In this document: positions 5,701-53,631 of the stretch, in pieces
Layout of the letters: each line of letters opens with the position of its first letter
Position numbering within the stretch: position 1 is the first letter of the stretch
From: a virus
Length of the DNA stretch: 58,395 bases
Virus record (IMG/VR): IMGVR_UViG_3300045988_082887
Direction: 5' to 3' (one strand)
Translations under genes and position numbers: made by a program
Notes under the pieces: generated by a model
Databases searched by the model: none
What the model saw: the letters and a program-made list of their open reading frames with translations, nothing else
Told to the model about the DNA's origin: nothing

Positions 5701-6945
5701 CGCAGGACTCTGGATGGTCTGTGCAAGGTTGCCCTGCACGTTGGCAGTCTGCTTCATAATGGCAATATAACGCAGAACTGCCTTATCTGCCTGAGACAGA
5801 CTAGAAACCTGTTTGTTAAAGCCTAAAGCTAGAAGCTCCTGCTGTAACCGTGCCTGAGACAGGTCGACGCCCAGACGGCGAATAGGCTCAATCTCGCCAG
5901 AGATTGCGGAGGACATTGCAGTAAAGGTCTGCGCAACGTCCTTGTTCCAATAGGAACCTTCGTCATAGGCAAGCTGAGTCAGGTTCTTGGACAGAACGTA
6001 TGCCTTGTCGCTGGCCAGACCAAACGAAGTACCCAAGCTCTGAATAGTAGCCATGTAGGTCATCGCTTTGGTTGGGTCAACGCCAAGTAATCCCTGCATC
6101 TTGCTAATGAGCGTATCGGCTTCACCGCTCAAATTGCCCATAGCATTATGAAACAGGTCTGTTGCTTCATAGAAGTCGTTAAACTTCGCAACAGCGTTGC
6201 CAAGATATTCAGCAATGGCTTTCAGCGAAACCAGCTTTGCCATGTTCCGCATAAAGCCGTTCATCTGATTGGACAGGCTGAGATAGCTCTTACGCTGTTT
6301 TTCGTTGGCAGCAGTCACACGGTTAGCCTGTGTGACCACCTTGCTCAACTGCGGAGGGAGCTTTGCAAACGCATTGCCCACCTTGTCAAGCTGAGATGCA
6401 AGAGGAGTAAGAGCAGTAGAAATCTTCTGACAAGAGCTTGCAAAAGAATCAAGGTCTGTCGCTTTCAGTTTGTCGGTCAGGTCAGGAACCTTTCCGATCG
6501 CATTGAAAGCACTGCCAAGAGCTTTAAAGCTCGATGCATCCACAATGGACAGCGGAGCCAAAGAGTTAGTGAGCTGAGTAATGCTTCCGGACATGGAATA
6601 AAAGTCCACACCGTTCAATCCAGACACAGCCGCAGGAATCTTTTTGATGGCATTCACGACCGTGTTGATGCTCTTTGCGCTTGCAGTCGTGTTGACGTTG
6701 GAAAGTCCATTCAGAAAGTTGGTAATTTTGTCCAGCCCAGACATTCCAGCGGATGCCTGTTTCAGCGCAGAAATGGAAGCGGACAGCCTGTCAAGGCTGT
6801 TCACAACCTTCGTCACGTTGCCCTTTGTCCGCAAATTAGAAATGGCGGTAGCGAGCTTGTCGATATTAAGCTCTGCGCCGCTGGATTCCGCAGAAATTTC
6901 TACGGATAAGCTTGTAATATCAACATCAGCCATCACTACCACCAT
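2800..6945 (-). CDS. Tape measure protein
   Basis: This is the longest ORF (1381 aa). It has an Ala/Ser/Leu-rich helical N-terminus and a central Gly/Ala-rich hydrophobic block, and follows the G/GT chaperone pair. The start may be the internal ATG at 6933. Confidence 0.85.
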   Translation of the reverse strand: MVVVMADVDITSLSVEISAESSGAELNIDKLATAISNLRTKGNVTKVVNSLDRLSASISALKQASAGMSGLDKITNFLNGLSNVNTTASAKSINTVVNAIKKIPAAVSGLNGVDFYSMSGSITQLTNSLAPLSIVDASSFKALGSAFNAIGKVPDLTDKLKATDLDSFASSCQKISTALTPLASQLDKVGNAFAKLPPQLSKVVTQANRVTAANEKQRKSYLSLSNQMNGFMRNMAKLVSLKAIAEYLGNAVAKFNDFYEATDLFHNAMGNLSGEADTLISKMQGLLGVDPTKAMTYMATIQSLGTSFGLASDKAYVLSKNLTQLAYDEGSYWNKDVAQTFTAMSSAISGEIEPIRRLGVDLSQARLQQELLALGFNKQVSSLSQADKAVLRYIAIMKQTANVQGNLAQTIQSPANQIKILKAQLDMLAKSVGSLLYPALKSILPPLIAAVQLIREFVEWVAKLMGVKVVFTDFTKSADSVGGIGDAMDDTADSTKKAAKALKDYTMGFDELNIIDPTQGSSGSGSGAAAGNILGDVDLSGYDMFKQYNEEFAKQIDAIKQKIKDMLPVIGAISAALALWKITNFLTNIATAISKMTDLQKLALSIATVVVEASLVFSFAKGYASSGNPLELLGEVVSAAFGSFVLWRTIGADGITLGMGIAFVASLAGLTYALGTGEANLGDASTWIQAALTTAFGSITGITLLTNLGAASGTAATLSIGLAGLITFAGITFSLGEKLKEFPVFDTIITALMGIFGGAAGAGVALLVGASLPVAGAVAAAGVGIGLVLHWAGIKWGAKESGEKTDAAAEADIKMHYVENVFEQRIDAIKQIIVTKWNAVIDFMTSLPEKVGNIVSSIGEWFSSLPEKIGYALGFAVGKIGEWVGNMVVTVTTEVPKIVSSVVKFFEELPGNIGTAILKTLDVISEWRERMVAFVVVEIPKIVSSIVEEFKKLPGELKKLGKFIWDGLINGLKDTWSTVTDGIKSFTDGFVNGFKEALGIHSPSTVFAEIGGYIDQGLANGITAAVSYVTAAMQGVVNAVQEKGQALIDAGSAQATNYVTGFLNGLDTQWQQIEQSLQSDFFGSIGTLWDAISNGDLEKLGTWAASYFYHAMDDEQRKQIKSIANNSLQWLTQGLSSVWNNIAGMASSFIGQLVPSTVAATTAQTGLNVAMNANPILFVISLIGMLAGALFNLAGTNSDVAGGISSVWGGLKNFMSYIFEGIVRLLGLFIQGFVNGVNVMIGAYNLVAQLWGGQIEYVKNPLFEYADKIAASRESGPAVDSIASGNVDYSNVPGTSQYSGANSSGSYTSSYSRSAELTPSELRDSVKEGFIAAMQESGFGGTDNGNLTVRVYLDGKEITSAVEKRQSDRGMSLMGTEAYSY

Positions 6946-12205: not shown

Positions 12206-13714
12206 TTATTTGCCCTCTGTTTCTTTATTGGTGCTGTCAGCCTGTCCGTCCGATGTTTTGTTGGCATCAACAACTTGTTCAGGCTGTTTCTCCTGCGGTC
12301 TCGGAGCTTTGCCGTCCTCGCCCAGCTTGCCAGCGGCAATCAGGAAAGGCACACTTGCTTGATATGCAGCTTCCGGGTCTGTATAAAGGTGAGAAATTTC
12401 AAAAGCCAAATGCGGGTCTGCCGAAGAATCAAGCATTTGGATAAAGACTTGAACCTTACTTTGCAGATTGTCATATTGACGACGCGGCAGTCTTATTTCA
12501 ACGTCACTTGCCATCAGCTTAGAACCAGCCGTATCACGCAGGATTTTCAGCATCACAGACAGGCTTTGGCGTTCAGAGAACTTGAACATATTCTCGTACT
12601 GCTGCGCCCTTGCTTCTGTGTGATTCCAGCCGTTGCGGACAATGACTGCGCCCACGTTGTCAGACGTTGCGTTCTCACTGCCGGTAGCACTAGGCATAGC
12701 AGTCAGGCTGCGGTACACGTTCAACATGGAATCAAGCAAGGTCTGGCTCTGCTGCTGGTCAAGCTCATTGGCAATCTGCGAAACAGATGCGGGCATACCG
12801 GAAGTGGATTTCAGGCACATTGCGCCAAGCTCTTTTACTTGGTCGAGAGCATTCTTGTCCACAAGGCAGTTGGTAAACACCATGATGGACTGAATGAACT
12901 GCGCTACGCCGTCTAGACGATTGCTTTCTAGGTCGTTGATGGCATCCAGAACAGGGATGGCCGGTTCAAACAGACCCATGCGCTCCGGGTTGAGCTTGTA
13001 TTCGACCATCGGCAGCATTCCAAGAGAATGATTCTCCGATTTTGTGACCTTGCCGTTGTCGATTTCAAAGTACTGGTTTGGCGTATACACGCAAATCAGG
13101 TCGTTCAAGTCGTTCTGATAATTGCGCGGGATGTGCAGCACGTTGGCAATCGGCTTGTGTCCGATGCCGGAGTTGTAAATCACATACGCCATGTCGGGGT
13201 CTGGAACATCCACCAACAGGGGCGTTTCGTCCGGGTAATTGCCGCCATACCCCTTGTCAGGAAGAACGATGCGGTATCCCTGTCCGCACTCCAACATCCA
13301 CTGCCAGAGCCGCCGATCAAGCGCGTCCTTGCCCTCATACTGCAAAGCGTTAGACAGCCGGGCGATTTCCTCGCCGTCACCTGTTGCCGTTTCAGACCGC
13401 ACATAAGAGCACGGCGTGCCACTCATATAACCTGTGTAAAAGCCCACGCACTCATTGGCGTGGTTCTCAACAATGCGGTTAGTGATTTCAGCATGGTACT
13501 CCTTTGTGCGGTGGAGGACAGGCTGGCTGCCCAAGTAGTAGTTGTGCAGGAAACGAATCTCATTCTTGTTCAGCAGATGAATAGGCTCTGCCTTTCCCAT
13601 TACCACTTTCAGCACGTTCTCCCGATTGATTTCCGTCTCCGGCGTTTCAATCGGTCTGCGTCCGGTCAGCGGATTATTCAAAAATCCGCCAACGACTATC
13701 TGATACTCAGCCAT
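12206..13714 (-). CDS. Portal protein (SPP1 gp6-like)
   Basis: 502 aa with a typical size and position. RBS is GGAAAGGAGGAA. Confidence 0.85.
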   Translation of the reverse strand: MAEYQIVVGGFLNNPLTGRRPIETPETEINRENVLKVVMGKAEPIHLLNKNEIRFLHNYYLGSQPVLHRTKEYHAEITNRIVENHANECVGFYTGYMSGTPCSYVRSETATGDGEEIARLSNALQYEGKDALDRRLWQWMLECGQGYRIVLPDKGYGGNYPDETPLLVDVPDPDMAYVIYNSGIGHKPIANVLHIPRNYQNDLNDLICVYTPNQYFEIDNGKVTKSENHSLGMLPMVEYKLNPERMGLFEPAIPVLDAINDLESNRLDGVAQFIQSIMVFTNCLVDKNALDQVKELGAMCLKSTSGMPASVSQIANELDQQQSQTLLDSMLNVYRSLTAMPSATGSENATSDNVGAVIVRNGWNHTEARAQQYENMFKFSERQSLSVMLKILRDTAGSKLMASDVEIRLPRRQYDNLQSKVQVFIQMLDSSADPHLAFEISHLYTDPEAAYQASVPFLIAAGKLGEDGKAPRPQEKQPEQVVDANKTSDGQADSTNKETEGK

Positions 13715-13806
13715 GTGTTCCTCCTTTCCGGCAAAATAAAAAAGCGCAGCAAGAAAAACCTGTTAAGGTCTATCTCACTGCGCCAAAACTGCGCTTCAAA
13801 AGCTAT

Positions 13807-13989
13807 TTACTTTTCCGGTGGATGGATGATTTTCACCCATCCTTCCCTTGTGTCTCCTTCGATTACGCCCTTGCATCTGTCACACTTGAAATGGTATCGT
13901 CCGTCTACTTCGCCAAGATAGCGGTTGCAGCGGACGTTCTTATAGATTGGGTTTTGCCTGATACAAGGACAGCAGATTCTAACTAGCAT
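13807..13989 (-). CDS. Small CxxC zinc-ribbon protein
   Basis: 60 aa with CPC...C and CDRC pairs. RBS is GAAAGGAGCG. Confidence 0.55.
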   Translation of the reverse strand: MLVRICCPCIRQNPIYKNVRCNRYLGEVDGRYHFKCDRCKGVIEGDTREGWVKIIHPPEK

Positions 13990-14152
13990 GAGCGCTCCTT
14001 TCGTTGGATTTCTGGAAACAGGCTGTTGAGCACAGACCTGTCGGAAGCTACTGGGAAACTGTTCGCACTTCCAGCCGTGCTATTTTCCGCCCGGAAAACC
14101 TTCACAGTCTTTCTGTTTGCCGGACAGGCAATGGTTCAGACTGCGATTCGGA

Positions 14153-14221
14153 CGCGGAAGCTGGATTTGAACCAGCGGCCTCTTGGTAACCAAGCGAGCT
14201 ACCTGACTGCTCCACTCCGCG
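14153..14221 (-). ncRNA. tRNA-like element 1: canonical acceptor, D and T arms but a 3-nt anticodon loop
   Basis: Minus strand reads CGCGGAG-TG-GAGC-AGTCAGGTA-GCTC-G-CTTGG-TTA-CCAAG-AGGCC-GCTGG-TTCAAAT-CCAGC-TTCCGCG-T. Every arm pairs, but the anticodon stem closes on the triloop UUA. Confidence 0.55.
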
Positions 14222-14348
14222 ATAGACCCGGCTTACTTTACCGCTGCTCTTTGCAAAAGGAGAAATTGAAAAAGCCTTTTGCATCGAGAGCCGGGAATAG
14301 CGGCGAGGTGTCAAAAGAGAAATCCCATGCAAAGCAAGAGGATGGTTG

Positions 14349-14425
14349 CGCTGCGTAGCGGGTTTGAACCGCTTCGTGTCAGTTGGGGGAGTACAAACAA
14401 CGTTCCGTCCACTCGGAAACGCAAC
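14349..14425 (-). ncRNA. tRNA-like element 2: 7-bp acceptor stem, CCGAGTGG-type D arm and T arm, but an aberrant anticodon arm (4-bp stem, 12-nt loop)
   Basis: Acceptor GTTGCGT pairs with ACGCAGC. T arm is AGCGG-TTCAAAC-CCGCT. The central part, GTTG-TTTGTACTCCCC-CAAC, does not form a 5+7+5 arm. Confidence 0.5.
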
Positions 14426-14566
14426 ATATAACCCCCACGACAGAGAAAGGCGGCTGTCGTGGGTGAGTAAGAAAGGAGGGTATTACACAACAAATGACGA
14501 GTAAAAATGACTTAAAAAATCTCGCCAACGCAATACCTAGAGGAAGCTGCAAATCTTCCTGGTACT

Positions 14567-14595
14567 ATTGTAAGCCATGTCAATAGGCAAATCAA
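14567..14595 (-). promoter_or_regulatory. Candidate sigma70-type promoter for the tRNA-like/structured RNA locus
   Basis: Minus strand TTGATT-17 nt-TACAAT, located 39 nt downstream of the terL stop codon. Confidence 0.45.
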
Positions 14596-14633
14596 ATTTT
14601 AATGCCTACGCACCCGGCTATTTAGGGGAATTA

Positions 14634-17303
14634 TTAAAATGGCCTCTTGACAGGCTCGATTTTACTGATTCCGTTGTACAATTCATCGGCAAGCTGTGCC
14701 AGACTATCCGGTGCATCATCGTGCGGAACTTTGCCAAGCTGCGTGAACATCGTCACCTGTTCCATGAACGCTTTGTACTCTTTCGACTGGTGTTTCTCGT
14801 CAAGGAAGTAGAACCGCTTAATGTCCGGCGCATACTGGATGATTCTGGACAGCTTGCTTTGACCACTTGGCGCACGCTGGCTGCGAACAGAACAGTGATA
14901 GCCCTGTTGCCGGAGCTGACTATCCACCACATCACAGTATTCATCACCGCCGTTGTTGGCTTCGCCGCGTACCACGTTGATTTTGTGCTGGATGATTTTG
15001 CCAACGACTTCCGGTCTGGTCACGGTCTTATCGCCGTTATTGAACACAAGGTCTGGGATGAACACGGCATCGCCATACACATAGGCGATAGGACAGGCGG
15101 TGAAGTCACCGCCGCCCCATGCAATATCCATAACCATAAGCTTGCGATCAGGCTCTCCATCAGGCAGAACGCCGTTGAAATACCGCAGTTCATCGGCAGG
15201 GAACAGCAGACCTTCACGCACATAGGGCTTACCCATGTACTTTGCCCACCATGTTGCATCATCAATGCTGGCTTTCATGTCGGCATAGTAGGCGTCATCA
15301 AATCCTACGCCGTAGTCATAGTTGAAGTTGCTGTGTCCGTTCTCGTCCACCGCAGGAATTACCCGGAAGCGGTATTTCGGGTTGTCTGCATACTGGTTCT
15401 GGATGCGCCCCAGAGGGTCAAGAACGTTCCAGCGTGTACCGACCATCAGCTCTAATGCTCCCTGCTTTTTACGGTCTTTCAATTGGTTAAGGTAGGCATC
15501 GTACTTATTGTTTAGGCGCTCAACATTCAGGCTTTCCTCCAAGTCCTCAATCAAGTCATCGCTGTACAGAACGCCGCCCTCACCGATTTCAACAGCGCCA
15601 GTCAGAGTACCGCCAATAGAGCGACAAGTCAGGGTGGGGAATCGCTTCTTTCGATTCAGGTCAACGCTTTCGTCCTTTGCGCTCTTGTCCACAAGCTGAA
15701 CGTCAGGGAAGATTTTTCCCCAGTTGTAGGTAACAGGGTCGGTGATGATGGATAGCACCTCGCCGTAGAAGCCGTTGGTCAGCTTGTCAGAGTGCCCGCT
15801 CATAACCGATGCAACGTCCGGGCGGTTTCCCATAAGCCATGTGATGAAGAAAATGCACAGGGTACTGTTATGGGTAGGAATTAGCCGTTTGCCAGCGCAA
15901 TACACGCCGCCCTCAACCTGAATGCAGTTTCCTTGCTTCGGCTCGATGCGCTCAAACCCGCAAAACGCCACACGGCGAGGTTTGGAAAACTCCTTTAACT
16001 GCTTGCGAGGAACAACGCAAGGAATGGGGCAGGTAGGATTAAAAGAGATGGAATAGACTGTCAGATTGCCTTTAATGCCACTAGACGATACGCGAGGTGG
16101 ATATTCAACCACGCTGCATCTCCATCCAAAGGTAGAAACCAGCGTGACAAAATCATCTCTCATTTGCGGCTCTGTGGTAGAAAAAGCGTACCGATGCTCT
16201 TTTGCCCGTAACGTACCGTCTGTATCGAGCAGACCGGCAAGCAATTCCATACGCTGTGCAATGCTGGCTGTGAAGTATTCTTCTGGGATGTGCTTCACGC
16301 AGCGGCGGTGACTATGGCACATATCGCCTTTTTGAAGTGCTTGTCGCAAACCAGAGAATCCGTAGTATTCAACACCAGTGTCCTTGTGAACCGTATGCCA
16401 ACTAACCGGGTATCCATCGTTAATGACGCGCTCAACAATTACCCGATCACAAGGCGGCTCGCAAATATCCGGGTGTTGGTTGCGGCCATCGCCAAGCCAT
16501 GCGCCCAATGTGTACGGCTCAACAGGCAGTTTCTTATATTCTCCCTCAACAAAATTTTTGAACGGAACCTGATAACAGAATCTTATGCCATCTTTTGTAT
16601 CGGTAACATAATCCTCCATCATCCGCTTGGTTTCGACCACATCAAATCCGTTCTTATGGCGGTTAAAGACCGGCCACTCGTGGTTTTCGTGGCAGTCAAT
16701 GTATGTGCCGTCAGAGAAATGGCATCGCACATCAAGCTGACACTTAGGCGAAACTGCCAGCACCTTCACAAACTGGCCTTTCGGGCTGATAACTTCATCG
16801 CCAACTTGCAAATCGCCGTGATTCTTCCAGCCGTTTCGTGTAAGAATCGGCGTATCATCGCTCAAAGCCTTGCCCACGCGAGCCGGAAGGCTGACCCCCA
16901 AGAAATCTATCCGCTTATAAAACAAGTCCTCTAGGTCATCTGCCAGCACTTTCAGCACTCTGCGTCTGGGCTGATAGAACTTCTTCTCCGGCGCACGGTT
17001 CCATTCAAGGTAGATGCAATAACTGTCGAACACGTCTTTTGCTTCAAACAGGTACGTCCGGCTGATAATGTCATAGACCTTCGCCACGTCCTCGCCTGTT
17101 TTCATCTTGCCCATCATGGCCGCGCAGACAGAGCGCAGCTCACCAGAGTATTTGTAGGCATCGAACCGCTTGCCTTGCGGCAAAGCGTCTCTCAGGTTCA
17201 CGACCGCCTGAAACCAGTCCTCGTAGACCTGTGCTTCGGTCGGATTCTGCTTTGCATACGCTTTGATGCTGTCAATGATGGCGATACACTGCTTTGGCTG
17301 CAT
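14634..17303 (-). CDS. terL: Terminase large subunit precursor carrying an intein
   Basis: The Walker A motif is split: GVSLPARVGK, then the intein, then STLCIFFITW. A C-terminal nuclease-type region is present. The likely start is the ATG at 17303 (MQPKQC...) rather than the track start at 17357. Confidence 0.9.
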   Translation of the reverse strand: MQPKQCIAIIDSIKAYAKQNPTEAQVYEDWFQAVVNLRDALPQGKRFDAYKYSGELRSVCAAMMGKMKTGEDVAKVYDIISRTYLFEAKDVFDSYCIYLEWNRAPEKKFYQPRRRVLKVLADDLEDLFYKRIDFLGVSLPARVGKALSDDTPILTRNGWKNHGDLQVGDEVISPKGQFVKVLAVSPKCQLDVRCHFSDGTYIDCHENHEWPVFNRHKNGFDVVETKRMMEDYVTDTKDGIRFCYQVPFKNFVEGEYKKLPVEPYTLGAWLGDGRNQHPDICEPPCDRVIVERVINDGYPVSWHTVHKDTGVEYYGFSGLRQALQKGDMCHSHRRCVKHIPEEYFTASIAQRMELLAGLLDTDGTLRAKEHRYAFSTTEPQMRDDFVTLVSTFGWRCSVVEYPPRVSSSGIKGNLTVYSISFNPTCPIPCVVPRKQLKEFSKPRRVAFCGFERIEPKQGNCIQVEGGVYCAGKRLIPTHNSTLCIFFITWLMGNRPDVASVMSGHSDKLTNGFYGEVLSIITDPVTYNWGKIFPDVQLVDKSAKDESVDLNRKKRFPTLTCRSIGGTLTGAVEIGEGGVLYSDDLIEDLEESLNVERLNNKYDAYLNQLKDRKKQGALELMVGTRWNVLDPLGRIQNQYADNPKYRFRVIPAVDENGHSNFNYDYGVGFDDAYYADMKASIDDATWWAKYMGKPYVREGLLFPADELRYFNGVLPDGEPDRKLMVMDIAWGGGDFTACPIAYVYGDAVFIPDLVFNNGDKTVTRPEVVGKIIQHKINVVRGEANNGGDEYCDVVDSQLRQQGYHCSVRSQRAPSGQSKLSRIIQYAPDIKRFYFLDEKHQSKEYKAFMEQVTMFTQLGKVPHDDAPDSLAQLADELYNGISKIEPVKRPF
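15867..16868 (-). mobile_element. 334-aa intein (Ala1 ... THN/S) with a LAGLIDADG homing endonuclease, inserted in the terL P-loop
   Basis: Starts ALSDDTPILT and ends IPTHN followed by S. LAGLIDADG motifs are LGAWLGDGR and LLAGLLDTDG. Removing it restores GVSLPARVGKSTLC. Confidence 0.85.
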
Positions 17304-17346
17304 AAAAAAATAGGCACCCCCTACCTGAAAATGTAAAGAGTGCCTA
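17304..17346 (-). terminator. Hairpin plus U-run abutting the terL start (possible terminator or antitermination point)
   Basis: Minus strand TAGGCAC-22 nt-GTGCCTA-TTTTTTT, followed directly by the ATG. Confidence 0.3.
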
Positions 17347-17416
17347 CAACTGCACAAAAATCAAATATTCGGTTTTTATAATGCTGTTTTAGAAATTTTC
17401 TTTATTGACTTAGTTT

Positions 17417-25423: not shown

Positions 25424-25651
25424 GGGGGTGCAAGCTGTGATTTTATCCGCACTTCTGTTTTTCTTCTGGTTTTTTTCGGCGCTGTTTAAGGCAAGCAAGT
25501 AATGCCTATCGGACACTTTAGCGGGGCTGCACCGTAAAGCAACCCCGCCCCAGCCCAAAATGGCAAAAAACTTTCTGCAAGTCCTGTTTTTGGGGCTTGC
25601 AATATGCTATACTGTAAAAAAAGGGTAAAGCCCGGAAAGAAAGGTATCACC

Positions 25652-53290: not shown

Positions 53291-53631
53291 TATTTCGTTC
53301 CTTTCTGAAAAATCCCCCACTTTGCCTACAACGTACCCCGCATGGAACGCAGAGCTTCGACAAAGCAAGGGAGTTTTTTTGTAAAATCAAGAGCGGAAAT
53401 GCCCACAGGCAATGCCGCTCTCTACAAATGCCATAGCCTTTCAAGTCTAAAGGCGTCTCCCGCATGGTACGCACTGTAAGTAGGCGGGCGGGAGACTGTT
53501 CAGCGCCGAATCTGTCGACTGCTTTTTTCATTCCAAGATAAAGCACTGGGCTAGCTGGCAAATATCCACCCTAATGCGCTTCTTCGAGAGGCCGGGTAAA
53601 TTTGTTGATGTTATTATACCACAAATCGTGC

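What the first reader, a model, noticed from the sequence alone, without database searches (positions are those of the whole stretch)
13990..14633. Two tRNA-like cloverleafs with non-decoding anticodon arms in a ~640-nt structured non-coding locus between terL and portal
The terL-portal interval has no convincing ORF apart from a 60-aa zinc-ribbon gene. It does have its own TTGATT-17-TACAAT promoter and many long helices, for example CCCACGACAG/CTGTCGTGGG, CCCGGCT/AGCCGGG, TGCAAAAGG/CCTTTTGCA and GTCTG.../CAGAC-type pairs. Embedded in it are two elements with perfect 7-bp acceptor stems, D arms and GNTTCAAAYC T arms. Their anticodon arms cannot decode. Element 1 has a perfect 5-bp stem closed by a 3-nt loop (UUA). 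Element 2 has a 4-bp stem with a 12-nt loop. They flank a ~125-nt highly paired RNA. Possible roles (all inference): RNase P/Z processing handles that release the intervening RNA; decoys for tRNA-targeting host defences; or parts of a large ornate phage RNA of the kind often found next to tRNAs.
Basis: partly seen in the sequence, partly recalled or inferred. Interest (0 to 1): 0.8.

Follow-up and report, generated by a model that had tools for sequence, protein, structure and literature searches.

The report
Anticodon-less tRNA relics flanking phage pseudoknot
A gut phage keeps two former methionine-tRNA genes that can no longer read codons but are still conserved in tRNA shape, probably as cutting signals for host tRNA-processing enzymes around a previously undescribed pseudoknot RNA that also sits in front of tRNAs in other gut phages.

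Summary
On the minus strand, between the large terminase and a 60-aa zinc-ribbon ORF, lie two cloverleafs without a usable anticodon loop.

- **Element 1 (14221-14152).** It scores 51 bits on Rfam tRNA but has a 3-nt loop. In 134 of 158 distinct related loci the same slot holds a normal tRNA-Met(CAU). The window's clade (16 distinct sequences) shares a 4-nt deletion. A second lineage independently carries a GAAA-capped stem.
- **Element 2 (14425-14349).** It is tRNA-like in every family member. A more distant Lachnospiraceae-MAG relative has a true tRNA-Met in this slot.
- **Selection.** Both relics evolve more slowly than their flanks, so they are not decaying pseudogenes.
- **Spacer.** The RNA between them is a covariation-supported pseudoknot. 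The same motif, absent from Rfam, ends 5-12 nt upstream of tRNA-Met, Gly, Ser or Leu genes in other gut phage families.
- **Cassette.** The unit has its own conserved promoter and a terminator after the zinc-ribbon ORF.

Best explanation (inferred, about 0.5): the relics are RNase P/Z processing handles for a tRNA-punctuated transcript. A decoy or trans-acting role is not excluded. A single large ornate RNA is disfavoured.

The parts
14567..14595 (-). Sigma-70-type promoter TTGATT-17-TACAAT of the cassette
   Evidence: Consensus scan. Both hexamers are near-invariant in 82 related loci. An equivalent promoter is present in the outgroup L205. Transcription itself is not shown.
14542..14559 (-). 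5'-proximal hairpin GGAAG/CUUCC at the predicted transcript start
   Evidence: RNAalifold on 70 distinct sequences: 4 pairs at 99-100% paired, one of them with AU/GC exchange.
14434..14463 (-). Hairpin CCCACGACAG/CUGUCGUGGG that ends 8 nt before element 2
   Evidence: Read from the sequence. Relatives have non-homologous hairpins at the same place, each followed by a UUAUAU-like leader.
14349..14425 (-). Element 2: tRNA-Met-derived tRNA-like RNA. It has a 7-bp acceptor, a D stem-loop, a canonical T arm, discriminator G, and a fourth arm GUUG/CAAC with a 12-nt C-rich loop (CUCCCCC). No CCA is encoded.
   Evidence: Present in all 158 distinct related sequences and never with a 7-nt anticodon loop. 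Cloverleaf covariation is supported. The outgroup L205 has a true tRNA-Met(CAU) with CCA in this slot. No Rfam tRNA hit and no ARAGORN call.
14222..14348 (-). Inter-element spacer RNA: a CU-rich 5' tail with the conserved ACCUC motif (14309-14305), then the pseudoknot
   Evidence: Alignments. ACCUC-like motifs lie 4-9 nt before helix Pa in several phage families.
14227..14303 (-). H-type pseudoknot. Pa is 14303-14299 with 14245-14241. Pb is 14295-14289 with 14233-14227. The inserted hairpin Pc is 14288-14247. The pseudoknot ends 5 nt before element 1.
   Evidence: Within the family: 97% paired and 12 covarying pairs. Across phage families: 100% paired against 20-56% in slid controls. Across 108 distinct instances there are at least 9 Pa pair combinations and 2 compensatory Pb variants. 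No Rfam family matches.
14152..14221 (-). Element 1: initiator-type tRNA-Met relic with anticodon stem CUUGG/CCAAG closed by a UUA triloop. Discriminator is U, followed by CCG (no CCA).
   Evidence: Rfam tRNA 51.4 bits with the loop shortened by 4 nt. blastn similarity to phage tRNA-Met genes. Homologous slot analysis. Diversity within the clade is 0.012 per site against 0.03-0.08 in flanks. Tertiary-contact positions U8, A14, G15-C48, G18G19, U54U55C56 and A58 are intact, as read from the sequence.
14091..14151 (-). Two hairpins after element 1: CAGUCU..AGACUG and UUUUCC-GGGC-GGAAAA
   Evidence: Stems differ in sequence but remain complementary in relatives (read by eye). Not tested formally.
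13990..14090 (-). Nearly invariant 5' leader of the zinc-ribbon ORF. The predicted fold pairs GCUUC with the Shine-Dalgarno region GGAGC.
   Evidence: Conservation profile. RNAalifold shows a few covarying pairs, for example CUGG/CCAG to CCGG/CCGG. The leader differs in the outgroup L205. Its function is not tested.
13807..13989 (-). 60-aa zinc-ribbon ORF (CxxC...CxxC), co-transcribed with the RNAs
   Evidence: Translation. No Pfam or PHROG family. Homologues occur only in this phage family.
13733..13784 (-). Intrinsic terminator (long GC-rich hairpin plus U-run) that closes the cassette before the portal gene
   Evidence: Fold energy -29.8 kcal/mol, z-score -4.55. An equivalent terminator follows the ORF in L205.

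Best explanation
The locus is a small phage transcription unit:

promoter, tRNA-like element 2, pseudoknot spacer, tRNA-like element 1, leader, zinc-ribbon ORF, terminator.

It descends from a two-gene tRNA-Met operon. The two cloverleafs have lost decoding but are kept in tRNA shape because that shape is what host RNase P (5' side) and RNase Z or 3' trimming enzymes (3' side) recognise.

Cutting at the two relics would have two effects. It would release the roughly 125-nt spacer RNA, which consists of an ACCUC-containing tail plus the pseudoknot. It would also create the mature 5' end of the zinc-ribbon mRNA.

The anticodon arm is not needed for this. It has therefore been capped by a tri- or tetraloop in element 1, and rebuilt into a longer hairpin that displays a C-rich loop in element 2.

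**Shown here:** the tRNA-Met ancestry, the clade-wide loss of the anticodon loop, purifying selection on the relics, the pseudoknot and its recurrent position just upstream of tRNAs, and the promoter and terminator signals.

**Inferred:** every cleavage event, the accumulation of the spacer RNA, and any activity of it or of the C-rich loop.
For: 1. **Ancestry.** The same slot as element 1 holds tRNA-Met(CAU) in 134 of 158 distinct related loci. The slot of element 2 holds a true tRNA-Met with encoded CCA in the outgroup L205.
2. **Independent losses with shape retained.**
   - Class D (16 distinct sequences) has CUUGG-UUA-CCAAG.
   - Class E (6 sequences) has ACGUC-GAAA-GACGU. Relative to class B it carries compensatory changes in the acceptor (G-C to U-A) and the D stem (G-C to C-G).
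   - In an unrelated 150-kb phage contig (L410), a third relic (CCUG-UUUA-CAGG) sits upstream of the same pseudoknot.
3. **Selection.** Within class D, diversity per site is 0.012 for element 1 and 0.009 for element 2. Flanks are 0.03-0.08 and the terL 3' end is 0.045. All 4 variable sites of element 1 keep pairing or lie in loops.
4. **Conservation pattern of element 2.** The acceptor, T arm and discriminator are essentially invariant, the D and T stems covary, and the fourth arm varies in length and sequence. By established knowledge, RNase P and RNase Z read the acceptor/T-arm stack.
5. **Modularity.** The element 1 slot is exchanged among at least 5 sequence classes while its neighbours stay the same. 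The pseudoknot ends 12 nt or less upstream of an ARAGORN-called tRNA in 133 of 177 distinct contexts: Met 107, Gly-UCC 19, Ser 4, Ile 2, one unassigned. It also follows a promoter and precedes tRNA-Leu. In L410 it is followed by a terminator instead of a tRNA.
6. **No decoding need.** The window encodes no functional tRNA at all, so decoding is dispensable to this phage while the shapes persist.
Against: - No transcript or cleavage data exist. Everything about processing is inferred.
- If only RNase P/Z recognition mattered, the anticodon stem of element 1 could erode. It remains a perfect 5-bp helix, although little time has passed in this clade.
- The C-run in the loop of element 2 is conserved across types. 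Its acceptor sequence, not just its pairing, is invariant. Both hint at an additional, possibly trans-acting, role.
- Element 1 is followed by U-CCG and element 2 by A/G-CAA. C74/C75 are known anti-determinants for RNase Z, so the 3' route is uncertain.
- Low diversity could partly reflect recent recombinational spread of one module.
- The biochemical function of the pseudoknot is unknown, so the product these handles would release has no demonstrated role.
Confidence: 0.5

Rival explanations
1. The processed relics are trans-acting tRNA mimics or scaffolds. Once released they would be stable tRNA-shaped RNAs that act on host or phage factors.

- Element 2 would be a natural 'tRNA scaffold' that displays a C-rich (anti-Shine-Dalgarno-like) loop to pair with G-rich ribosome-binding sites.
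- Element 1 would titrate a protein that reads the tRNA body, such as an acceptor-end toxin, a modification enzyme or the CCA-adding enzyme.
For: - The CUCCCCC-type C-run is conserved in the loop of element 2 across otherwise different arm types, and the supporting stem covaries.
- The acceptor sequence of element 2 is invariant.
- The anticodon stems of element 1 are capped by tight loops rather than eroded.
- All tertiary-contact nucleotides of element 1 are retained (read from the sequence).
- An ACCUC motif in the spacer is also C-rich and conserved.
Against: - Sites complementary to the loop are not enriched in the phage genome: 37 found against 29.4 expected. Host targets could not be searched.
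- No covarying partner for the loop was found within the transcript.
- Decoys for anticodon nucleases need the loop that was removed.
- Most relatives keep a normal tRNA-Met in the element 1 slot, so a mimic function cannot be the general role of that slot.
Confidence: 0.2
2. The whole roughly 570-nt region works as one large structured RNA, or as a long regulatory 5' UTR of the zinc-ribbon and late genes. The tRNA-like domains would be structural parts. For example, the pseudoknot could act as a processive-antitermination or RNA-polymerase-binding element, with the leader gating translation.
For: - Every segment is a covarying or conserved structure.
- The leader is nearly invariant and can sequester the Shine-Dalgarno sequence.
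- A strong terminator lies between the cassette and the portal and head genes, so read-through control would make biological sense.
- GOLLD and ROOL RNAs are known to sit among phage tRNAs (PMC12286853).
Against: - No match to ROOL, GOLLD, OLE, tmRNA or any other Rfam family.
- Modules are exchanged independently, and the pseudoknot occurs with unrelated tRNAs, sometimes twice within 250 nt of one array. This argues against long-range architecture and against a once-per-operon antitermination site.
- The leader is not conserved in the outgroup L205.
Confidence: 0.15
3. The elements are simply recently inactivated tRNA-Met pseudogenes. They would have no function of their own and be carried along by linkage.
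For: - Element 1 differs from a working tRNA by a single 4-nt deletion.
- Its clade is shallow, at 93-99.7% identity over the locus.
- tRNA genes in this slot turn over rapidly.
Against: - Element 2 is fixed in all 158 distinct sequences of a diverse family and has compensatory changes in three stems.
- Anticodon-less forms arose at least three times, and each keeps a clean cloverleaf.
- Both relics are the least variable segments of the locus within the clade.
Confidence: 0.1

Closest known systems
Phage-encoded tRNA-Met genes and phage tRNA arrays
   Same: Element 1 scores as a tRNA (51.4 bits) and resembles phage tRNA-Met genes. Homologous slots hold working tRNA-Met(CAU). The context resembles a small tRNA operon.
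   Different: Neither copy in this window has a 7-nt anticodon loop, and ARAGORN calls no tRNA. Element 2 also lacks the two-nucleotide acceptor-D linker and an encoded CCA.
Non-decoding tRNA-like processing modules: MALAT1 mascRNA and MEN-beta, murine gammaherpesvirus 68 vtRNA-miRNA units (TMERs), and plant mitochondrial t-elements (from general knowledge, not tested here)
   Same: These are tRNA-shaped elements without decoding function, embedded in a longer transcript. RNase P or RNase Z recognition of them defines the ends of neighbouring RNAs. MHV68 is also a DNA virus that uses tRNA relics in this way.
   Different: All of those are eukaryotic or organellar. Here the host would be a Firmicute, and the relics are visibly caught in transition from working tRNA-Met genes. 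Cleavage has not been demonstrated.
Functional tRNA-operon spacers in bacteria: E. coli 3'ETS-leuZ and the metZ-metW-metV internal spacers acting as sRNA sponges (from general knowledge)
   Same: A spacer between or after tRNAs, freed by tRNA processing, is itself the functional RNA.
   Different: Those spacers are short, weakly structured and act by base pairing. This spacer carries a sequence-conserved pseudoknot that is shared across phage families.
Engineered tRNA scaffolds for RNA expression, with the insert replacing the anticodon loop (mentioned in PMC3753655)
   Same: Element 2 has the same design: an intact acceptor, D and T body with a foreign stem-loop in place of the anticodon arm.
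   Different: This one is natural rather than engineered, and the displayed loop has no known target.
GOLLD and ROOL large ornate RNAs near or containing phage tRNAs (PMC12286853)
   Same: A phage-borne structured RNA associated with tRNAs.
   Different: There is no sequence or structure match. This locus is modular and much smaller per module.
Pseudoknotted acceptor arm of plant-virus tRNA-like structures such as TYMV (from general knowledge)
   Same: The spacer pseudoknot stacks a 7-bp and a 5-bp helix, the same lengths as a tRNA acceptor plus T stem, and has a single-stranded 3' tail.
   Different: This is purely a geometric resemblance. No aminoacylation or RNase P data exist, an extra hairpin sits at the junction, and it lies upstream of a tRNA rather than at a genome 3' end.

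Membership tests
tRNA (Rfam RF00005 / canonical decoding tRNA) | Covariance-model score at or above the gathering threshold | tested here: met
   This row is for element 1 only: 51.4 bits against a threshold of 29, over the full model.
tRNA (Rfam RF00005 / canonical decoding tRNA) | Covariance-model score for element 2 | tested here: not met
   No tRNA-clan match at 14346-14425 even at E<=10 in a 1.2-kb search.
tRNA (Rfam RF00005 / canonical decoding tRNA) | Seven-nucleotide anticodon loop with U33 and an anticodon | tested here: not met
   Element 1 has a 3-nt loop UUA. Element 2 has a 12-nt loop. ARAGORN finds 0 tRNAs in the window.
tRNA (Rfam RF00005 / canonical decoding tRNA) | Cloverleaf stems maintained by compensatory change | tested here: met
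   Element 2: 90% paired and 12 pairs with changes on both sides. Element 1 slot: acceptor, D and T stems covary across classes.
tRNA (Rfam RF00005 / canonical decoding tRNA) | Aminoacylation and use on the ribosome | not testable with these tools
   By established knowledge, MetRS needs the CAU anticodon, which is absent. This is an inference only.
tmRNA | tRNA-like domain plus tag-peptide reading frame and pseudoknots, detectable by ARAGORN or Rfam | tested here: not met
   ARAGORN finds no tmRNA. Rfam finds none.
ROOL / GOLLD / other curated large or phage RNAs | Match to the Rfam covariance model | tested here: not met
   No match in 13700-14900 at E<=10. The window-wide gathering scan gives only tRNA, RAGATH-5 and DUF3800-VIII, the last two elsewhere.
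Non-decoding tRNA-like processing elements (mascRNA, TMER vtRNA, t-element type) | tRNA-like fold without a functional anticodon, embedded in a longer transcript | tested here: met
   for the fold. Promoter upstream and terminator downstream.
Non-decoding tRNA-like processing elements (mascRNA, TMER vtRNA, t-element type) | Cleavage by RNase P and/or RNase Z at the element's ends | not testable with these tools
   Needs end mapping or in vitro cleavage.
Non-decoding tRNA-like processing elements (mascRNA, TMER vtRNA, t-element type) | Selection acts on the tRNA body, not on decoding | tested here: met
   Diversity is low in both relics. The acceptor and T arm are invariant while the anticodon arm varies.
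H-type RNA pseudoknot (spacer element) | Two crossing helices, each supported by covariation | tested here: met
   Pa and Pb cross. Family alignment: 97% paired. Cross-family alignment: 100% paired with compensatory changes in both helices.
Known self-cleaving ribozymes or riboswitches with pseudoknots (HDV-like, pistol, hatchet, twister-sister, preQ1, SAM-II and others) | Match to the Rfam model | tested here: not met
   No hits on the pseudoknot in the window or in L417 and L410 at permissive thresholds. Catalysis itself is not testable here.

The most novel reading that the evidence does not exclude
The cassette is a phage 'tRNA-punctuated small-RNA factory'. Former tRNA genes would have been converted into non-decoding scaffolds and cleavage handles. 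The conserved unit of ACCUC motif plus pseudoknot, which precedes tRNAs of several identities in multiple gut phage families and has no Rfam family, would be a new class of functional RNA with a specific biochemical role. Candidate roles are a trans-acting regulator of host translation through C-rich seeds, a cofactor or guide for pre-tRNA 5' processing, or a self-processing element.
Probability: 0.25. Interest if true: 0.8.

Novelty: new variant of a known kind. Interest (0 to 1): 0.62.

Why it matters
- **Annotation.** Phage tRNA genes are usually explained by codon usage or by evasion of tRNA-targeting defences. Here tRNA genes repeatedly lose the anticodon yet stay under selection. If this is general, some 'tRNA pseudogenes' and unannotated gaps in phage genomes are working RNA-processing signals or scaffolds. 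It would be a bacterial-virus counterpart of mascRNA and herpesvirus TMERs.
- **A new RNA motif.** The follow-up also exposes a sequence-conserved, covariation-supported pseudoknot that sits just upstream of tRNAs in several abundant human-gut phage families and matches no Rfam family (release 15). That makes it a concrete and easily testable candidate for a new RNA class linked to tRNA maturation.
- **Tooling.** ARAGORN misses these elements. The Rfam tRNA model detects element 1 but not element 2 or the GAAA-capped relic.

Tried and rejected
- **Assembly or indel error in element 1.** Rejected: 16 distinct contig sequences share the triloop.
- **Hidden coding region.** Rejected: none of 8 mechanical ORFs on either strand is intact in more than 20 of 77 distinct relatives.
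- **Known RNA family (tmRNA, ROOL, GOLLD, T-box, ribozymes).** No Rfam or ARAGORN support.
- **Target search for the C-rich loop of element 2 in the phage genome.** 37 sites found against 29.4 expected, so not enriched. No covarying partner was seen within the transcript.
- **Metagenome-wide scan for outgroup-like loci (CAGCACCA..TTCCCGGCTC).** It returned 120 chance matches. None had the full pseudoknot or any blastn similarity.
- **Closer relatives of the outgroup L205 in IMG/VR.** None found; all hits belong to the main family.
- **Cultured phages carrying the locus or the pseudoknot.** None. Only unannotated human-faecal contigs match. The distant relatives Clostridium phage Maintenon and MT835537 lack this RNA cassette: in MT835537 terL abuts portal, and in Maintenon only a 46-aa ORF intervenes.
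- **Zinc-ribbon protein.** No Pfam or PHROG family, and no similarity to the small ORF at the same position in Maintenon. Homologues occur only in this family.
- **Supplementary data of the 10,006-candidate phage RNA survey (PMC10690425).** Not held, so overlap with that catalogue could not be checked.
Full report
**Layout.**
All genes around the finding are on the minus strand. Reading 5' to 3' on that strand:
- a 907-aa large terminase (14634-17357; PHROG terL hits, plus a weak LAGLIDADG hit that suggests an intein)
- the 644-nt interval of the finding
- a 60-aa CxxC...CxxC ORF (13989-13807)
- a strong intrinsic terminator (13784-13733; -29.8 kcal/mol, z = -4.55)
- an SPP1-type portal gene (13714-12206)

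A sigma-70-like promoter, TTGATT-17-TACAAT, lies at 14595-14567. Both hexamers are almost invariant in relatives. The interval is therefore the front part of a self-contained cassette, not simply a terL-portal spacer.

**Checking the observation.**
- ARAGORN finds no tRNA or tmRNA in the whole window.
- Rfam places a full-length tRNA match of 51.4 bits at 14221-14152. Its anticodon stem CUUGG/CCAAG is closed by only UUA. This is element 1.
- Read against tRNA numbering, element 1 keeps U8, A14, G15-C48, G18G19, U54U55C56 and A58. Its body closely resembles bacterial initiator tRNA-Met. blastn also picks up phage tRNA-Met genes.
- Element 2 (14425-14349) has acceptor GUUGCGU/ACGCAGC, a D stem-loop with GG, the canonical T arm AGCGG-UUCAAAC-CCGCU, and a fourth arm GUUG/CAAC with a 12-nt loop. 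It does not reach even E = 10 against Rfam tRNA.
- Each acceptor contains one wobble pair, so 'perfect' is slightly generous.
- None of the eight mechanical ORFs in the interval is intact in more than 20 of 77 distinct relatives. The interval is non-coding.

**Relatives.**
The portal protein retrieved 80 IMG/VR contigs of about 55-60 kb with 90-96% portal identity. A DNA pattern retrieved 120 more. Together they give 158 distinct versions of the locus. The RNA region is much more diverse than the portal, at 69-99.7% identity, and it is clearly mosaic.

A Lachnospiraceae MAG contig (L205, portal 78% identical) is the only outgroup found and gives a host hint. The more distant relatives MT835537 and Clostridium phage Maintenon lack this RNA cassette: terL abuts portal in MT835537, and only a 46-aa ORF intervenes in Maintenon. 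The cassette is therefore an insertion specific to this lineage.

**What element 1 is.**
In 134 of the 158 distinct loci, ARAGORN calls a normal tRNA-Met(CAU) in exactly this slot. Two loci have tRNA-Ile(UAU). The tRNAs fall into several unrelated sequence classes (elongator-like A; initiator-like B and C), so the slot is frequently exchanged. Two classes lack an anticodon loop.
- **Class D.** This is the window's class, with 16 distinct sequences. It has CUUGG-UUA-CCAAG, and one member has UUG.
- **Class E.** It has 6 sequences with a different body, and the arm is ACGUC-GAAA-GACGU. Compared with class B it shows compensatory changes in the acceptor (G7-C66 to U-A) and the D stem (G10-C25 to C-G).

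It shows that element 1 is a derived tRNA-Met gene. The loss is nevertheless real, clade-wide and recurrent.

Within class D, nucleotide diversity per site was:

| Segment | Diversity per site |
|---|---|
| Element 1 | 0.012 |
| Element 2 | 0.009 |
| Other RNA segments | 0.026-0.078 |
| terL 3' end | 0.045 |

The four variable sites of element 1 are one loop base, one variable-region base, a G-C to G-U change in the D stem, and a G-U to A-U change in the T stem. That is not how a decaying pseudogene behaves.

**What element 2 is.**
It is present in all 158 sequences (70 distinct versions) and never has a 7-nt loop.
- The acceptor, the T-loop and the 3' tail A-CAAC are essentially invariant.
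- The D stem begins directly after the acceptor, and it covaries, as does the T stem.
- The fourth arm ranges from 4 to 8 bp with loops of 12 nt or more. In most types these loops contain a C-run (CUCCCCC).
- On a 36-sequence alignment the cloverleaf is 90% paired, against 37-44% when partners are slid. Twelve pairs change on both sides.

In the outgroup L205, the same slot holds a canonical tRNA-Met(CAU) that ends in CCA and has the closely related acceptor GUUGUGU/ACACAGC. The slot there has the same upstream hairpin, the same AAUAU leader and the same downstream spacer. The second slot of L205 holds an initiator-like tRNA-Met. The simplest history is a two-gene tRNA-Met operon. The first gene lost decoding before the family radiated. 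The second is losing it now in some lineages.

**The spacer.**
The 127 nt between the relics consist of a CU-rich tail with a conserved ACCUC motif, followed by a pseudoknot.
- Pa is CCGCU/AGCGG.
- A 3-nt AUU follows.
- Pb is CCCGGCU/AGCCGGG.
- The hairpin Pc is inserted at the junction.

Pa and Pb cross each other. In the family alignment 97% of cells pair and 12 pairs covary.

Two pattern scans that excluded the main family found the same motif in 68 further IMG/VR stretches, a few of them chance or main-family matches; most come from 73-150 kb contigs of different phages. Findings from these:
- Pa takes at least nine different complementary forms, always directly after a conserved GC.
- Pb shows two compensatory variants (CCUGGCU/AGCCAGG and CUCGGCU/AGCCGAG).
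- A compact version has a GAAA-capped Pc.
- A 17-sequence cross-family alignment is 100% paired, against 20-56% in slid controls.

Of 177 distinct contexts, 133 have an ARAGORN-called tRNA starting 12 nt or less after the pseudoknot: Met 107, Gly-UCC 19, Ser 4, Ile 2, one unassigned. Other arrangements also occur:
- Some units are promoter, leader, pseudoknot, tRNA-Leu(UAA).
- In one 150-kb contig (L410) the arrangement is anticodon-less tRNA-like element (CCUG-UUUA-CAGG, clean MFE cloverleaf, z = -4.5), linker, pseudoknot, intrinsic terminator.

No Rfam family matches the motif. No cultured phage in the INPHARED set carries it.

**Interpretation.**
The data show three things:
- tRNA-derived elements are kept in tRNA shape without decoding.
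- Conservation concentrates on the parts that RNase P and RNase Z read (acceptor, T arm, elbow), while the anticodon arm is free.
- The neighbours are independent modules.

The best-supported mechanism is therefore tRNA punctuation. Host RNase P and a 3' activity would cut at the relics. This would release the spacer RNA and define the 5' end of the zinc-ribbon mRNA. The nearly invariant leader of that mRNA can pair GCUUC with its own Shine-Dalgarno sequence.

I put it at about 0.5, because no cleavage is shown and some features point to extra, possibly trans-acting, roles. Those features are the conserved C-run of element 2, its invariant acceptor sequence, and the tidy capping of element 1's stem. 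I put a trans-acting role at 0.2.

A single large ornate RNA or a long regulatory leader (0.15) is disfavoured by the modularity and by the absence of any ROOL or GOLLD match. A plain pseudogene (0.1) is disfavoured by the selection data and by the repeated, structure-preserving losses.

**Comparison with known systems.**
Functionally the closest are mascRNA/MALAT1, the herpesvirus MHV68 vtRNA-miRNA units and plant mitochondrial t-elements. All are non-decoding tRNA shapes used as RNase P/Z signals (general knowledge, not tested here). Functional tRNA-operon spacers such as E. coli 3'ETS-leuZ are also comparable. Element 2 has the same architecture as engineered tRNA scaffolds (PMC3753655).

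Neither element qualifies as a tRNA, because the anticodon loop is missing in both and the covariance model fails for element 2. The locus is not tmRNA, ROOL or GOLLD.

**Verdict.**
- The finding is a new variant of a known kind: tRNA-derived, non-decoding processing or scaffold modules, here in a phage of a Firmicute and caught in transition.
- The accompanying pre-tRNA leader pseudoknot appears to be an undescribed RNA motif. It is the most novel item to come out of the follow-up.

Noticed in passing
window 14227-14303 (-); also L404-L471, e.g. L417 1828-1896 (-), L411 358-424 (+), L456 5546-5595 (-): The spacer pseudoknot (ACCUC, Pa, AUU, CCCGGCUC, hairpin, GC, Pa', linker, AAGCCGGG) recurs in tRNA arrays of other gut phage families on 73-150 kb contigs. 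It ends 5-12 nt before tRNA-Gly, Ser, Leu or Met. No Rfam family matches it.
   Followed up: partly
L410 about 6190-6440 (+) (IMGVR_UViG_3300045988_119952): A third, independent anticodon-less tRNA-like element (GUUGUUA..CCUG-UUUA-CAGG..UAACAGC-ACCA, with an atypical 5-nt T loop). It is followed by a linker, the pseudoknot and an intrinsic terminator instead of a tRNA. A sub-threshold RAGATH-36 match (44.7 bits, E = 2e-7) lies just upstream at 5885-6016.
   Followed up: partly
L407, L408, L414 and about 25 other loci; e.g. the L407 extract, positions 505-645: A compact pseudoknot variant (Pb CUCGGCU/AGCCGAG, GAAA-capped hairpin) is followed 8 nt later by a 72-nt tRNA-like element, GCGAUUG..CAAUCGC-ACCA. 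Its anticodon stem is only 3 bp, position 33 is G, and ARAGORN does not call it.
   Followed up: partly
window 14634-17357 (-): The large terminase is 907 aa, against about 510-550 aa in L205 and distant relatives. It has a weak LAGLIDADG_3 hit at residues 369-412 and primase/helicase-loader PHROG hits at 123-385. This suggests an intein or homing-endonuclease insertion in the ATPase domain.
   Followed up: no
window 25509-25559 (+) and 53311-53374 (-): Two curated phage-associated RNA motifs pass Rfam gathering thresholds elsewhere in the window: RAGATH-5 (60.3 bits) and DUF3800-VIII (65.6 bits).
   Followed up: no
window 13990-14090 (-): The 5' leader of the zinc-ribbon ORF is the most conserved stretch of the locus, more so than the adjacent coding sequence. 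It can pair GCUUC with the Shine-Dalgarno region. It is not conserved in the outgroup L205.
   Followed up: partly
L133 and L195, element 1 slot: Two relatives carry an initiator-like tRNA body with anticodon UAU (Ile) instead of CAU. This is an anticodon switch within the same slot.
   Followed up: no
window 14426-14433 and 14222-14226 (-); equivalents in all related loci: Every tRNA or tRNA-like element in these phages is preceded by a stable helix ending in GGG plus a 5-8 nt U/A-rich leader (UUAUAU, UCUAU, UUUAUAU). This may be a shared pre-tRNA leader design.
   Followed up: no
window 13975-13989 (-) and homologous positions in L003-L082: The zinc-ribbon ORF has alternative N-terminal sequences across the family (ML VRI..., MVAKV... 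and MKAKV...). They segregate independently of the RNA module types.
   Followed up: no
L205 2464-3384 (+): The outgroup has an extra 306-aa ORF between the zinc-ribbon terminator and the portal gene. It contains a short tandem repeat (GGCTGCAAAGTCTGGAAAGGCTGGAAAG...).
   Followed up: no
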